64,000 nt of DNA from positions 7,298 through 71,297 of the forward strand of contig CAKOMS010000003.1 in NCBI GenBank assembly GCA_934096735.1, read 5' to 3'. The stretch comes from an uncultured Bacilli bacterium (lineage in GTDB: Bacteria; Bacillota_I; Bacilli_A; RF39; UBA660). A program made the translations under genes and the position numbers. Shown piece by piece: positions 31,222-33,102 of the stretch (within the stretch, counting starts at the first letter, position 1; the number at the start of each line of letters is the position of its first letter). The notes under the pieces were generated by a model. The model was given only the letters and a program-made list of their open reading frames with translations, searched no databases and had not been told where the DNA came from.

Positions 31222-33102
31222 GTGAAACTCCTTCTTGGAATAGAAATAATAACTTTATTTTTAGGGATTAAGAGTTTTGGTAATAAGAATAATACACTCG
31301 ATGACATTAAATTATTGGATAATAAATCTAATAATCTTTTTGCAATTATGGTTAAAGATTCTAGTGGTAATTATAGTGAAGCAAATGCTTTTCCAAAGGG
31401 TTCATACTTTTTAAATGAAACAATGTCATCATGCATAGATAATAATGGTAATAAAATAGATAATGTACTTAGTTATGAGAGTGGTCATGTTTATACAAAA
31501 ACAAACAAATCAGTTTATTGTTATTTGTATTTTGATAAAGACAATAGTGTATATGCAAAAGTAATAGATGATTATGAAAATAATAATGGAGTATTAAAAA
31601 CAACAGATGAGAATGGAAAAGATGTATATTACTATGCAGGTAATGTAACAAACAATAATTTAGTATTAAATAATTATTGTTGGAAGATGGTAAGAACGAC
31701 AGAAACAGATGGAGTAAAACTTTTGTATAATGGTGAATTAAAGCAAGTAATTGAAAATGAACCAATAACAAAAGATAAATATAATGTAACCACAAATACA
31801 CCAACAGGAACACCATTTACATTTGATGAGTCTACAAAGAAATGGACAAGTGGAATAGCAGGAGTAAAAAATGGTGAAAATATAATTGAGTTTACCGTAA
31901 CAGAAGCTGGTGACTATTTTTTAAATTATGAAATAAGTAGTGAAGAAAATTATGACAAAGGATCATTTTATAAGAATGGAATAGGACTAAAAGTAAATTT
32001 AAGTGGTTTATCTTCTGGAACAATAGAACTAAATGGACTAACAACAAGTGATGTAATAAAAGTAGTTTATAAAAAAGATAGCAGTGGGAATCGAAATGAT
32101 GATGTAGTAAGATTTTCAATAGGAAAACCAACTGGAAATGTTACCACAAATTGTAACAACGCAGGAACAGATGTATATATAGATTCAAATAGAACAAAAT
32201 ATAATACAAATGATAATTCACTGGCATATGTAGGATACATGTATGGAACTGTGTATGAATCGGCTGACAAAAATGCATCAGATTTTGGAACATATTATTA
32301 TGGAAGCGATGTAACATGGAATGGAACCACATATACATTAAGTGATGCAGAAAGTGGAGTAATCGCAGATATGTATAGTAAACTAAGTACAAAACATTAT
32401 ACATGTTTCAGTACAAGTACAAGTTGTTTGACAATTTATTATATATATTATATGAAAAGTGCAACGAGTACAGCATATTACATGACATTAACAAATGGTA
32501 AAAAAATAGAAGATGCTTTAGATGAGATGTTAAATTATAATACAACAAATAGTAATATAAAGACAGTAATAGATAATTGGTATAGTACAAATATGACAAA
32601 TGCAACAGGGTATTTAGAAAATGCAATATATTGTAATAATAGATACATAACAAATTTATCTGCAAGTGCATGGAATCCAAGTGGAGGAAGTTTAACAACA
32701 TATTTGCAATTTAACGATTATAATACAAATAATATAAGATTAACATGTCAAGATAAAGAAGATCAATTTACATTGAAAGTAGATAAAGGTGGAACATTAG
32801 GCTATGGAAATAATGCCTTAGATTATCCTGTAGGATTATTAACAAGTAAAGAATTTTATCTTGCTCGTTCTGGTTCAGATATTAATTACTTAAATAATAG
32901 TGATTATTACTGGTTGCTGTCCCCTTACGACTTCTACTTCGGCAGTGCTCGCGTCCGTAACGTGCACACTGGGAGTTTGCTCTACGACTTCAACAACACT
33001 ATCGGGGCCCGGCCTGCAGTTTCACTTTCAACAAAAGTTAAGTTAAGTGGAGAAGGAAATGGTACAGTTGAGTTACCATATATTTTGGCTCCTTTAGATT
33101 AA
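31222..33102 (+). CDS. paralogous membrane-anchored surface protein, copy 1 (main ORF; uncoupled from its ATG 31182 by a G10 tract)
   Basis: 626-codon ORF homologous to 53110..54630 and 62921..end (NYCWKMVRTTETDGVKLLYNG, YVGYMYGTVY, IKTVIDNWYSTNMTNA, YWLLSPY, RPAVSL). The RBS-preceded ATG at 31182 reads MRDIFKNDFRGGG and then stops at 31269..31271. With one G fewer it would fuse in frame. Confidence 0.75.
   Translation: MKLLLGIEIITLFLGIKSFGNKNNTLDDIKLLDNKSNNLFAIMVKDSSGNYSEANAFPKGSYFLNETMSSCIDNNGNKIDNVLSYESGHVYTKTNKSVYCYLYFDKDNSVYAKVIDDYENNNGVLKTTDENGKDVYYYAGNVTNNNLVLNNYCWKMVRTTETDGVKLLYNGELKQVIENEPITKDKYNVTTNTPTGTPFTFDESTKKWTSGIAGVKNGENIIEFTVTEAGDYFLNYEISSEENYDKGSFYKNGIGLKVNLSGLSSGTIELNGLTTSDVIKVVYKKDSSGNRNDDVVRFSIGKPTGNVTTNCNNAGTDVYIDSNRTKYNTNDNSLAYVGYMYGTVYESADKNASDFGTYYYGSDVTWNGTTYTLSDAESGVIADMYSKLSTKHYTCFSTSTSCLTIYYIYYMKSATSTAYYMTLTNGKKIEDALDEMLNYNTTNSNIKTVIDNWYSTNMTNATGYLENAIYCNNRYITNLSASAWNPSGGSLTTYLQFNDYNTNNIRLTCQDKEDQFTLKVDKGGTLGYGNNALDYPVGLLTSKEFYLARSGSDINYLNNSDYYWLLSPYDFYFGSARVRNVHTGSLLYDFNNTIGARPAVSLSTKVKLSGEGNGTVELPYILAPLD
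32911..33024 (+). other. adenine-depleted, GC-rich hypervariable block at the 3' end of copy 1 (DGR variable-region-like)
   Basis: Runs tggttgctgtccccttac...cggggcccggcctgcagtttca. My hand count gives about 56% G+C and about 17% A, against AT-rich flanks. Codon usage switches abruptly to tac/gac/ttc/ctg/cgc/cgg. Confidence 0.5.

What the first reader, a model, noticed from the sequence alone, without database searches (positions are those of the whole stretch)
32911..33024. Adenine-depleted, GC-rich block at the C-terminus of copy 1 resembles a DGR variable region
Codon usage switches abruptly from tta/aat/gat/aga-type codons to tgg ttg ctg tcc cct tac gac ttc tac ttc ggc agt gct cgc gtc cgt aac gtg cac ... 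ggg gcc cgg cct gca. My hand count is about 56% G+C and about 17% A, against under 30% G+C in the flanks. The block ends with a 12-nt G/C-only run, cggggcccggcc (33003..33014). In diversity-generating retroelements, adenine-specific mutagenesis depletes A in the variable repeat. Invariant residues are encoded by A-free codons. The 3' end carries a G/C-only stretch within the IMH (initiation of mutagenic homing) sequence. The encoded motif (YWLLSP...G...G.RPAVSL) sits at the extreme C-terminus of a surface protein, the usual place for DGR-diversified ligand-binding folds. No reverse transcriptase or template repeat occurs in this window.
Basis: partly seen in the sequence, partly recalled or inferred. 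Interest (0 to 1): 0.75.

Follow-up and report, generated by a model that had tools for sequence, protein, structure and literature searches.

The report
DGR-type variable region, template missing
The GC-rich, adenine-poor block has the signature of a variable region written by a diversity-generating retroelement, at the tip of a lectin-like binding domain in a multi-copy putative surface protein of an uncultured low-GC gut bacterium. The template repeat and reverse transcriptase were not found, and the region looks frozen rather than actively mutating.

Summary
Window 32911-33024 is 56.1% G+C and 16.7% A, against 25.7% G+C for the whole window, and it ends in the 12-nt G/C-only run at 33003-33014.

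The block lies at the C-terminus of a 626-aa protein. That protein has two paralogs in the window and at least two more in the same lineage, one just upstream on the same stretch of genome.

Evidence that the block has a DGR (diversity-generating retroelement) origin:
- Variable codons are NNC/NNT with a fixed third base.
- C-ending versus T-ending NNY codons are 13:2 in the block and 22:208 in the rest of the gene (p about 1e-10).
- 41 homologous VRs have 20 hypervariable columns that almost lack K/E/Q/M/W.
- A template peptide inferred only from the VRs retrieved real template-like sequences (SPNNFNNNNANVRNVN..NNNNVNNTNGARP).
- One of these, in a sister protein family from Hadza gut samples, differs from its VR almost only at template adenines.

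Evidence that limits the claim:
- No RT or TR was found in the window, in about 12 kb of its flanks, or in about 95 kb of other DNA from this lineage.
- Among close orthologs the VR varies no more than the rest of the protein (4.8% vs 4.6% of columns).
- Copies 2 and 3 show AT-biased decay.

Verdict: a DGR-written variable region, now rarely rewritten or orphaned. It is a new member of a known kind.

The parts
31222..33102 (+). Copy 1: 626-aa protein (identical to P0001). It has an N-terminal hydrophobic signal/anchor, a family-specific body, an extra insert of about 120 aa, and a C-terminal lectin-like domain that carries the VR.
   Evidence: ORF list. 100% match to P0001 among 810 homologs. 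Paralog alignment. Weak DUF6273 match at residues 93-143 of the last 166 aa (E 0.045).
32911..33015 (+). Variable region VR1: 35 codons, TGG TTG CTG TCC CCT ... GGG GCC CGG CCT. A GC-rich invariant scaffold is interleaved with NNC/NNT variable codons.
   Evidence: Composition. Codon statistics. Comparison with eight other distinct VR DNAs. 19 of 36 inferred template-A sites are changed and 0 of 71 non-A sites. It is one codon shorter than the modal VR.
33003..33014 (+). 12-nt G/C-only run at the 3' edge of the VR. It lies where TR/VR homology ends in the sister-lineage pair, so it is IMH-like by position only.
   Evidence: Sequence. GGGGCCCGGCC is kept in 6 of the 9 distinct VR DNAs read. In L021 the TR/VR homology stops after GGAGCACGTCCAG at the equivalent place.
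33016..33102 (+). AT-rich conserved C-terminal tail (AVSLSTKVKLSGEGNGTVELPYILAPLD) and stop codon. It is shared almost unchanged by the paralogs.
53110..54630 (+). Copy 2: 506-aa paralog (identical to P0063), lying between the HU gene and a methyltransferase gene upstream of rpoB.
54439..54549 (+). Variable region VR2: same scaffold, different variable codons, partly decayed towards A/T.
   Evidence: 18 of 36 inferred A sites are changed and 8 of 71 non-A sites, 7 of those 8 being GC to AT.
62951..64000 (+). Copy 3: the 5' part of a 493-aa paralog (P0042 cluster). Its VR lies beyond the window end.
   Evidence: tblastn. Alignment. The full gene and 4.2 kb downstream are seen in L024, a strain 99.75% identical to the window.

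Best explanation
The block is a variable region (VR) of the kind written by a diversity-generating retroelement (DGR).

Proposed mechanism:
1. A template repeat (TR) carries a GC-rich scaffold (TGG TTG CTG TCC CCT .. GCT .. GTC CGT .. GTG .. GGG AGT TTG .. GTG .. ACT .. GGG GCC CGG CC). About 18 AAC/AAT codons are interleaved with it.
2. The TR RNA was reverse-transcribed with random misincorporation opposite adenines.
3. The cDNA replaced the 3' end of the gene up to the G/C-rich boundary.
4. This turned each AAC into NNC. Invariant residues sit in A-poor codons and were left untouched. The result is a block that is A-poor, C-ending at third positions and GC-rich inside a 26% G+C gene.

The VR encodes the ligand-contacting end of a C-terminal domain that looks C-type-lectin-like and is distantly related to DUF6273. 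The protein has an N-terminal signal/anchor, so it is probably displayed on the cell surface. At least five dispersed paralogs in this lineage carry their own VR.

What is shown:
- the composition and codon signature;
- paralog- and species-level hypervariation confined to NNC-type columns;
- existence of the predicted TR class, and of an A-specific TR/VR pair, in relatives.

What is inferred:
- that a TR of this exact sequence and a DGR reverse transcriptase acted in this lineage;
- that the protein is a surface protein.

Current state: rewriting is rare or has stopped, because VRs are unchanged among close orthologs and copies 2 and 3 are decaying towards A/T. Copy 1 has a pristine scaffold, so it was rewritten most recently. 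My estimates: about 0.5 that an RT and TR still exist elsewhere in this genome, and about 0.15 that the VR is hypermutating at a rate visible within populations.
For: - Composition: 56.1% G+C and 16.7% A, against 25.7% and 38.4% for the window.
- Codon endings: NNY codons are C:T 13:2 in VR1 against 22:208 in the rest of the gene, p 1e-10. No A occurs at any third position of VR1.
- Codon-position diversity among eight paralog C-termini: 0.37/0.32/0.18 at positions 1/2/3 inside the VR, 0.11/0.11/0.17 upstream and 0.19/0.16/0.36 downstream. This is the reverse of normal coding divergence.
- 41 unique VRs of modal length have 20 columns with 8 or more residue types. K/E/Q/M/W, which NNC cannot encode, make up 3.2% there and 15.1% elsewhere. 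The fixed columns F, A, V, R/H, V, G, L, V and T/A/S fit TTC, GCT, GTC, CGT/CAT, GTG, GGG, TTG, GTG and ACT.
- Against the consensus-inferred TR, copy 1 differs at 19 of 36 A sites and 0 of 71 non-A sites. L009 differs at 16 and 0.
- The second half of copy 3's VR is almost unmutated AAC AAC TAC AAC GTG AAT AAC ACT AAC.
- A peptide translated from the inferred TR retrieved short ORFs that are template-like repeats, such as ..SPNNFNNNNANVRNVNTSGDLNNNNVNNTNGAR...
- One of these, P0174, lies directly downstream of a 449-aa protein of a sister family in Hadza and other gut samples. It differs from that protein's VR at about 19 template adenines and at 1 other site.
- Two further target-TR pairs were found in L025 and L030. 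A TR-avd-RT remnant was found in L026 and L031.
- The VR aligns to the C-terminal end of DUF6273. DUF6273 is the only Pfam family that recurs among homologs (8 of 59). DUF6273 is described as C-type-lectin-like and as a DGR target with the VR at its C-terminus (PMC11792537, PMC10743442).
- The top Foldseek hits for the modelled domain are mostly C-type lectin-like domains in both libraries searched.
- Remote, multiple DGR targets are known: 45 of 372 DGRs have them, with up to 7 for the Treponema DGR (PMC5758913).
Against: - No TR and no RT were found in any of these places:
  - the 64-kb window;
  - 8.1 kb upstream of the window;
  - 4.2 kb downstream of copy 3;
  - next to six other paralogs of the lineage;
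  - IMG/VR.
- No in-frame TR ORF with this lineage's scaffold exists in the protein collection, although such ORFs were called in several other lineages.
- Across ten 90%-identity clusters (46 sequences), VR columns vary no more than the rest of the protein: 13/270 against 247/5313.
- The VR of copy 2 is identical in assemblies that differ from the window by 2 mismatches in 13.9 kb and by 0.25%.
- VR length varies from 26 to 29 residues, and copy 1 is one codon short. A single TR does not predict this.
- Copies 2 and 3 differ from the inferred TR at 8 and 6 non-A sites.
- The TR is inferred from the VRs themselves, so the A versus non-A counts are partly circular.
- Third-position diversity inside the VR (0.18) is about the same as upstream (0.17). 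Scaffold identity therefore does not by itself prove recent homogenisation.
- No significant hairpin follows the VR (z from -0.96 to +0.97).
- The fold evidence is weak: pLDDT 65, and Foldseek E above 0.1.
Confidence: 0.8

Rival explanations
1. Relic VR. This reading is nested inside the DGR-origin explanation. The paralogs were diversified by a DGR in the past, but this lineage has since lost the RT and TR. The blocks are now ordinary coding sequence, drifting slowly towards A/T under purifying selection.
For: - No TR or RT in about 170 kb of lineage DNA.
- No excess VR variation among close orthologs.
- GC-to-AT decay at scaffold sites in copies 2 and 3, and a strongly decayed VR in L003.
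- A related, very AT-rich lineage shows a DGR in visible decay. The RT is cut to 184 aa, or to 118 + 64 aa, without the catalytic core, and the TR carries an internal deletion.
- No in-frame TR ORF for this scaffold in the 15-billion-protein collection.
Against: - Copy 1 and L009 show 0 of 71 scaffold changes. In a genome with strong AT pressure this argues for a recent rewrite; if copy 1 were as old as copy 2, about 7 changes would be expected.
- Only an estimated 6-9% of the genome was seen; the genome size is my assumption.
- My genome and metagenome scans could not have matched a TR with AAC at codon 7.
Confidence: 0.4
2. Not a DGR product. The loop region of a lectin-like domain diverged among paralogs under ordinary diversifying selection. 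The local C-ending codon usage has another cause, for example selection on mRNA or on translation.
For: - No RT or TR was found.
- VRs evolve at the ordinary rate among close orthologs.
- VR lengths differ.
Against: - Point mutation under selection does not fix third positions as C or T while saturating positions 1 and 2.
- It does not exclude K/E/Q/M/W in a lysine-rich proteome.
- It does not produce 13:2 C-ending codons in a gene that is otherwise 22:208.
- It also does not predict that an all-AAC version of the block exists as a separate repeat next to related genes.
Confidence: 0.08
3. Foreign DNA. A GC-rich segment from a higher-GC donor was inserted or spread among paralogs by gene conversion.
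For: - The G+C content changes abruptly at both edges.
- The paralogs share near-identical flanks, so they do exchange or retain sequence.
Against: - The block is in frame and homologous across all paralogs and across sister families in other low-GC bacteria (25% G+C).
- The paralogs share the scaffold but differ at the interleaved codons. Gene conversion would erase that pattern.
- No similar DNA was found in phage records or IMG/VR.
Confidence: 0.03

Closest known systems
DGR target proteins with a DUF6273 / C-type-lectin-like domain in gut Firmicute phages (Faecalibacterium prophages Lelie, CP11, Roos, Pioen; 'tentaclins' of phages nd4 and nd12). Sources: PMC11792537, PMC10743442.
   Same: - The VR maps to the C-terminal end of the DUF6273-type domain.
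- The scaffold motif is of the same kind, W-x-x-S-P ... G-x-R-P.
- The TR is rich in AAC codons.
- The setting is the gut.
   Different: - Those targets are phage receptor-binding or decoration proteins that sit in a cassette with TR, avd and RT.
- Here the carriers are chromosomal genes among housekeeping genes (rpoBC, lysS, spoIVA). They occur in five or more dispersed copies with no cassette nearby.
- The family is absent from IMG/VR.
- The Pfam match is below the curated cut-off.
Treponema denticola DGR (TvpA and remote targets) and other cellular DGRs with non-adjacent targets. Source: Wu et al. 2018, PMC5758913.
   Same: - One retroelement serves several dispersed chromosomal paralogs with C-terminal VRs.
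- Targets can lie more than 100 kb from the RT.
   Different: - The Treponema targets are of the FGE-sulfatase type, and the RT and TR are known.
- Here neither was found, and the VRs appear static among strains.
Bordetella phage BPP-1 Mtd / Brt, the founding DGR.
   Same: - VR at the extreme C-terminus of a C-type-lectin-fold protein.
- AAC-to-NNC codon logic.
- A G/C-rich element at the 3' boundary of the VR.
   Different: - In BPP-1 the IMH is defined by comparison with the IMH* of the TR, and a hairpin or cruciform follows the VR (from my own knowledge of that system).
- Here there is no TR to compare with and no significant hairpin.
Sister-family TR/VR pairs found here: L021 (Hadza and other gut samples), L025 (JGI sample 3300028591), L030.
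   Same: - Related body domain (YYY.GNVTNN.., AYVGYMYG).
- Same C-terminal VR position and low-GC hosts.
- The TR peptide is nearly identical to the one inferred for the window's VRs.
   Different: - In those lineages a TR lies 100-250 nt downstream of a target gene, and no RT is visible (within 8 kb in L020/L021 and L025; L030 is only a 981-nt contig).
- In this lineage no such TR was seen next to any of the roughly 11 paralogs examined.
- The scaffold differs by one residue in spacing.

Membership tests
Diversity-generating retroelement (VR of a DGR target) | A DGR-clade reverse transcriptase in the same genome | tested here: inconclusive
   Absent from the window and from about 12 kb of its flanks, and from about 95 kb of other lineage loci. 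The rest of the genome could not be read. No collection scan or look-up could be aimed at the genome.
Diversity-generating retroelement (VR of a DGR target) | A template repeat that matches the VR except at TR adenines | tested here: inconclusive
   No TR was found for this lineage. The patterns used wrongly fixed a T where the TR probably has A, so those two scans could not have matched it. The consensus-inferred TR gives 19/36 A-site and 0/71 non-A differences for copy 1, but this is partly circular. A real TR/VR pair with about 19 A-site differences and 1 non-A difference exists in a sister family.
Diversity-generating retroelement (VR of a DGR target) | Adenine depletion and an NNC/NNT codon signature in the VR | tested here: met
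   16.7% A against 38.4% for the window. No third-position A in VR1. C:T endings 13:2 against 22:208. Diversity by codon position 0.37/0.32/0.18. K/E/Q/M/W 3.2% against 15.1%.
Diversity-generating retroelement (VR of a DGR target) | Hypervariability confined to the VR among otherwise similar sequences | tested here: inconclusive
   Met between paralogs and between 90% clusters. Not met within 90% clusters, where VR columns vary 4.8% against 4.6% elsewhere. Read-level polymorphism could not be examined.
Diversity-generating retroelement (VR of a DGR target) | IMH at the 3' end of the VR (G/C-rich stretch, differing from the IMH* of the TR) and a downstream hairpin | tested here: inconclusive
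   A G/C-only 12-mer is present at 33003-33014 and is kept in most VRs. IMH versus IMH* cannot be compared without the TR. No hairpin better than shuffled controls lies downstream.
Diversity-generating retroelement (VR of a DGR target) | VR lies in a C-type-lectin (or Ig) fold ligand-binding domain, usually C-terminal | tested here: inconclusive
   The C-terminal position is met. The AlphaFold model of the last 206 aa has pLDDT 65. The top Foldseek hits in PDB and BFVD are mostly C-type lectin-like domains, but with E of 0.15 or more and TM about 0.2-0.3.
Pfam DUF6273 (PF19789) | Score at or above the curated gathering threshold (23.5 bits) | tested here: not met
   14.0 bits, E 0.045, for the window protein's last 166 aa, covering profile positions 126-171 of 172. 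The best homolog scores 21.6 bits. 8 of 59 homologs match at E <= 0.01. The domain is a distant relative, not a formal member.

The most novel reading that the evidence does not exclude
These low-GC gut bacteria may use, or have used, DGR chemistry in a non-canonical layout.

- A family of dispersed chromosomal lectin-like putative surface-protein paralogs is each written once or only rarely, and then kept. The outcome is a fixed repertoire of paralogs with different specificities rather than a continuously hypermutating locus.
- In sister lineages the template repeats are parked directly behind a target gene.
- The reverse transcriptase is remote, supplied in trans by a mobile element, or already lost.

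The window would then show 'orphan' DGR targets. RT-centred DGR surveys would be expected to miss these.
Probability: 0.2. Interest if true: 0.7.

Novelty: new member of a known kind. Interest (0 to 1): 0.45.

Why it matters
If this holds, an uncultured spore-forming gut Firmicute, abundant in Hadza samples, carries five or more DGR-written lectin-like putative surface proteins. That points to a programmable binding repertoire for host, phage or neighbour recognition.

It also shows that DGR variable regions can be recognised from raw sequence alone in very AT-rich genomes, by a GC-rich island of C-ending codons, even when the retroelement itself is out of view.

Three observations together offer a rare view of how DGR systems age and are lost: the frozen VRs, their graded decay, and the TR-without-RT and truncated-RT loci in relatives. 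Surveys that start from the RT gene would be expected to overlook such orphan targets.

Tried and rejected
1. Genome-collection scan with TGGTTGCTGTCCCCTTNCNNCTTC gave 0 hits. Metagenome scan with GGTTGCTGTCCCCTTN{36,52}GGGNGTTTG gave 4 hits, all VRs. I realised afterwards that both patterns fix a T at codon 7. That codon is variable and is probably AAC in the TR. These scans therefore could not have found the TR and say nothing about its absence. No scans of those collections remain.

2. Two IMG/VR DNA scans without that flaw found nothing related; the 7 hits were chance matches in high-GC phages. The protein family is also absent from IMG/VR.

3. blastn of the block against phage records gave no match. 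tblastn of the TR peptide against phage records gave no match either, probably because the low-complexity filter masks it.

4. Exact-protein look-ups of copy 1 and copy 3 are not on record. I reached the flanks through rpoC, the first window gene and a copy 3 ortholog instead.

5. The search for related loci in representative genomes returned only 2 loci, UMGS1372 and a MAG. Neither has a TR or RT.

6. I used an RT N-terminus from L026 to fish for the lineage's RT. It returned only short RT remnants from the 20% G+C lineage.

7. The GC-rich peak in L029 at 17091-17262 is a glycine-rich tail, not a TR. The N-rich hit in L011 is a low-complexity linker. L008 is chimeric or recombinant and is no use as a divergence control.

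8. The full-length AlphaFold model was too poor to use (pLDDT 59, C-terminus below 50). A profile search of PDB sequences found nothing.

9. I considered the collagen-like GC-rich gene at 22747-23487 as a possible TR source and rejected it. It consists of GXT repeats unrelated to the block.
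Full report
**The observation**

The block is real and is not a chance fluctuation. Window 32911-33024 is 56.1% G+C and 16.7% A. The 500-nt flanks are 25.8% and 28.2% G+C, and the whole window is 25.7% G+C and 38.4% A. 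For 114-nt windows the mean G+C is 0.257 with sd 0.065. Only one other locus in the window reaches 0.55, a collagen-like GXT-repeat gene at 22747-23487(-) that is unrelated. The 12-nt G/C-only run is at 33003-33014 as stated.

**Where it lies**

The block is in frame at the C-terminus of a 626-aa ORF, 31222..33102.
- copy 1, the 626-aa ORF above;
- copy 2, 53110..54630, 506 aa, with its own GC-rich block at 54439-54549;
- copy 3, 62951 to beyond the window end.

**Organism and context**

The window comes from a 26% G+C spore-forming Firmicute. It carries SpoIVA, a sortase, a T-box upstream of lysS, and rpoBC. The same sequence occurs in Hadza gut metagenome assemblies. Relatives are labelled 'uncultured Tenericutes bacterium UMGS1372' and 'Mycoplasmatota bacterium' in public records.

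The paralogs sit between housekeeping genes. Further copies lie 6.7 kb upstream of the window (L004) and on another contig of a sample that carries this strain (P0013, L012). A search of the 5.8-billion-protein collection gave 810 homologs, nearly all from gut metagenome assemblies. They carry no precomputed Pfam domain, except DUF6273 on a distant member.

**Anatomy of the block**

From TGG at 32911 the codons are:

TGG TTG CTG TCC CCT TAC GAC TTC TAC TTC GGC AGT GCT CGC GTC CGT AAC GTG CAC ACT GGG AGT TTG CTC TAC GAC TTC AAC AAC ACT ATC GGG GCC CGG CCT

- Two-fold NNY codons end in C 13 times and in T twice. In the rest of the gene the counts are 22 and 208 (Fisher p 1e-10).
- No third position in the block is A.
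- Copy 2 shows the same bias more weakly (10:6 against 22:161).
- Copy 1 and copy 2 are almost identical on both sides of the block. Inside it they differ at many first and second codon positions.

**Comparison across VR DNAs**

I collected nine distinct VR DNAs: window copies 1 and 2; copy 3 from L024; copy 0 from L004; P0013 from L011; and L003, L007, L009 and L010 (which is identical to the VR in L002).
- They share a GC-rich scaffold: TGG TTG CTG TCC CCT, GCT, GTC CGT, GTG, GGG AGT TTG, GTG, ACT, GGG GCC CGG CC. The codons interleaved with it are NNC or NNT.
- Among eight paralog C-termini, mean pairwise nucleotide difference at codon positions 1/2/3 is 0.37/0.32/0.18 inside the VR, 0.11/0.11/0.17 upstream and 0.19/0.16/0.36 downstream. 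Positions 1 and 2 therefore vary far more than position 3 inside the VR, the reverse of ordinary coding divergence.
- At the protein level, 41 unique VRs of modal length have 20 columns with 8 or more residue types, dominated by Y, N, S, G and D. K/E/Q/M/W, the residues NNC codons cannot encode, make up 3.2% there and 15.1% in the rest of the same proteins.
- The semi-variable columns also fit single template adenines. T/A/S/P fits ACT, and R/H/L fits CGT or CAT.

**Testing the DGR prediction**

From the VRs alone I inferred this TR:

TGG TTG CTG TCC CCT AAC AAC TTC AAC AAC AAC AAT GCT AAC GTC CGT AAC GTG AAC AAT GGG AGT TTG AAC AAC AAC AAC GVG AAC AAC ACT AAC GGG GCC CGG CC (with GTG at the position written GVG)

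- Against it, copy 1 differs at 19 of 36 A sites and 0 of 71 other sites. L009 differs at 16 and 0, L007 at 21 and 2, copy 3 at 14 and 6, and copy 2 at 18 and 8.
- This count is partly circular, because the TR is a consensus of the VRs.
- Two things are not circular:
  - The non-A deviations in copies 2 and 3 are almost all G/C to A/T, the direction expected for decay in this genome.
  - The second half of copy 3's VR is nearly pure AAC AAC TAC AAC GTG AAT AAC ACT AAC.

The strongest independent test was a search with the translated inferred TR, YWLLSPNNFNNNNANVRNVNNGSLNNNNVNNTNGARPAVSL. It returned ten short ORFs of 52-72 aa, such as ..WLASPNNFNNNNANVRNVNTSGDLNNNNVNNTNGARW... These are template-like repeats of the predicted class.

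**What the relatives show**

- **P0174 (L020-L023).** It occurs on at least 23 contigs from Hadza and other gut samples. It lies about 100 nt downstream of a 449-aa protein of a sister family, which has the same body motifs and a weak DUF6273 match, and upstream of a second paralog. TR and VR1 differ at about 19 template adenines and at one other base. Their homology ends after GGAGCACGTCCAG, the position that corresponds to the window's G/C run. This is a textbook DGR TR/VR pair.
- **L025 and L030.** L025 (25% G+C) and L030 show the same target-then-TR layout.
- **No adjacent RT in any of the three.** No RT gene is visible next to the TR: nothing within 8 kb in L020/L021 and L025, while L030 is only a 981-nt contig. 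This departs from the core TR-RT adjacency of all catalogued cassette architectures (PMC5758913).
- **L026 and L031 (20% G+C).** This lineage has the canonical order TR-avd-RT, but the RT is cut to 184 aa, or to 118 + 64 aa, without the catalytic core. In L031 the TR itself has an internal deletion. That DGR is decaying.

**Looking for the machinery in this lineage**

No TR or RT was found in any of the following:
- the window (relaxed blastn; tblastn with TR peptides; RT motif scan; Pfam on unannotated ORFs);
- 8.1 kb upstream of the window;
- the flanks of P0013, of the UMGS1372 copy, and of the L003, L007, L009 and L029 copies;
- IMG/VR.

This covers only a small part of the genome; I estimate 6-9%, assuming a genome of 1.2-1.8 Mb. 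My two scans of the genome and metagenome collections used patterns that fixed a T where the TR probably has A. They could not have matched a TR and do not count as evidence of absence.

**Is the VR mutating now?**

I read the members of ten 90%-identity clusters, 46 orthologs from different assemblies. VR columns are variable in 13 of 270 cases (4.8%), and other columns in 247 of 5313 (4.6%). In cluster 3, which contains copy 3, 44 columns vary and none of them is in the VR. A fully rewritten VR changes only about 4% of the protein, so such variants would still have clustered together. None is present.

The VRs are therefore stable at the strain level, yet saturated with differences between paralogs and between clusters. 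Combined with the graded scaffold decay, this suggests rewriting events that were rare and spread over time. Copy 1 and L009 show 0 of 71 scaffold changes, copy 3 shows 6, copy 2 shows 8, and L003 is much more decayed. Copy 1 looks like one of the most recent rewrites. Read-level polymorphism could not be examined.

**The protein**

- The N-terminus, MKKIDFRGGVVKLLLGIEIITLFLGI in its longer form, looks like a signal or anchor sequence. Surface display is inferred, not shown.
- The VR maps onto the C-terminal end of DUF6273, profile positions 126-171 of 172, at E 0.045 and below the curated cut-off.
- DUF6273 is the only Pfam family that recurs among homologs: 8 of 59 at E <= 0.01.
- DUF6273 is reported as C-type-lectin-like and as a DGR target with the VR at its C-terminus, in Faecalibacterium prophages and in 'tentaclins' (PMC11792537, PMC10743442).
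- An AlphaFold model of the last 206 aa reached pLDDT 65, with 70-82 over the core.
- The best Foldseek matches in PDB and BFVD are mostly C-type lectin-like domains (LOX-1, CLEC9A, NKR-P1, poxvirus and herpesvirus CTLDs). E is 0.15 or more and TM is 0.2-0.3, so this is only suggestive.
- No hairpin better than shuffled controls follows the VR.

**Verdict**

Its interpretation is right as an account of how the block got its sequence: it carries the signature of a DGR-written variable region in a lectin-like C-terminal domain (confidence about 0.8).

The following are not established:
- that this genome still holds the RT and TR (about even odds);
- that the locus is hypermutating today (unlikely at population-visible rates);
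- that the G/C run is an IMH.

Non-DGR explanations are diversifying selection with odd codon bias, and a foreign GC-rich insert. Neither accounts for the fixed third positions, the missing K/E/Q/M/W, or the existence of all-AAC template copies in relatives.

This is a new member of a known kind. DGR targets of the DUF6273 / C-type-lectin type are known, and so are DGRs with several remote targets (PMC5758913). The points worth following up are the number and dispersal of the paralogs, the apparently frozen VRs, and the TR-behind-target loci without an adjacent RT in sister lineages.

Noticed in passing
L021 6554-9727 (also L020, L022, L023); L025 2-2317; L030 3-638: In three related low-GC gut lineages an AAC-rich template repeat lies 100-250 nt downstream of a target gene. 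It is followed by another paralog, by argS, or by an unidentified protein-coding gene. No avd or RT lies within 8 kb in L020/L021 and L025, and L030 is only a 981-nt contig. In L025 the repeat copy continues about 90 nt past the VR into the tail-coding region at 100% identity. This is not one of the catalogued DGR cassette architectures.
   Followed up: partly
L026 330-1576; L031 336-1540: A 20% G+C lineage has TR-avd-RT in canonical order, but the RT is truncated to 184 aa, or to 118 + 64 aa, and lacks the catalytic core. In L031 the TR has an internal deletion. All 18 database relatives of the RT N-terminus are short (61-175 aa). Some of these may simply be cut by contig ends.
   Followed up: partly
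window 22747-23487 (-): A collagen-like protein (246 aa) made of G-X-T triplet repeats, recalling the collagen-like exosporium proteins of spore-formers. It is the only other strongly GC-rich stretch in the window (peak 0.59).
   Followed up: no
window 33186-34814 (-) and 34910-35461 (+): Directly downstream of copy 1 lies a 542-aa protein with a C-terminal sortase domain and a long, lysine/asparagine-rich N-terminal extension. Next to it is a 183-aa secreted protein ending in ..TGSTLPYIALGG + hydrophobic stretch + KKAKMYKI, a possible non-canonical sorting signal. Whether the sortase acts on the VR-bearing proteins is unknown; those proteins have no such signal.
   Followed up: no
window 23590-31075 (+): A gene cluster lies upstream of copy 1: a GT2 glycosyltransferase with TPR repeats, an SGNH-like protein, a radical SAM enzyme, a 244-aa unknown, a 783-aa protein with a weak phosphoribosyltransferase match, a homolog of phage T4 Gp30.3 (E 1e-26), and a 207-aa membrane-anchored protein with weak camelysin-like similarity immediately before copy 1.
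   Followed up: partly
L024 10888-11034 (copy 3 VR, just beyond the window end): The second half of copy 3's VR is almost unmutated template sequence (AAC AAC TAC AAC GVG-position GTG, then AAT AAC ACT AAC), while the first half is heavily changed. Possible causes are a partial, low-mutation rewrite from the 3' end, or selection for asparagines.
   Followed up: no
VR lengths across homologs (P0001-P0107): The stretch between WLLSP and G.RP is 27 residues in 43 proteins, 28 in 22, 26 in 6 (including copy 1) and 29 in 2. The extra or missing codons fall at different places. A single TR does not predict this. Slippage on AAC runs, several TRs, or later indels are all possible.
   Followed up: no
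L008 (OIZL01010186.1) vs window 54291-56967: This contig is identical to the window for about 1.5 kb (copy 2's 3' end through the start of rpoB). It then becomes 16-36% divergent inside rpoB. It is either an assembly chimera or a recombination breakpoint.
   Followed up: partly
L011/L012 1-5661: The paralog P0013 lies about 4 kb downstream of conjugation-type genes (TraG-like P-loop ATPase, VirD4/TraG coupling protein, a SpoIID-domain protein). This suggests that one copy sits beside an integrated conjugative element.
   Followed up: no
window 35531-35723 (+): A T-box leader (111 bits) lies upstream of the lysyl-tRNA synthetase gene at 35758-37257. This is ordinary, and it confirms the Firmicute context.
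   Followed up: yes
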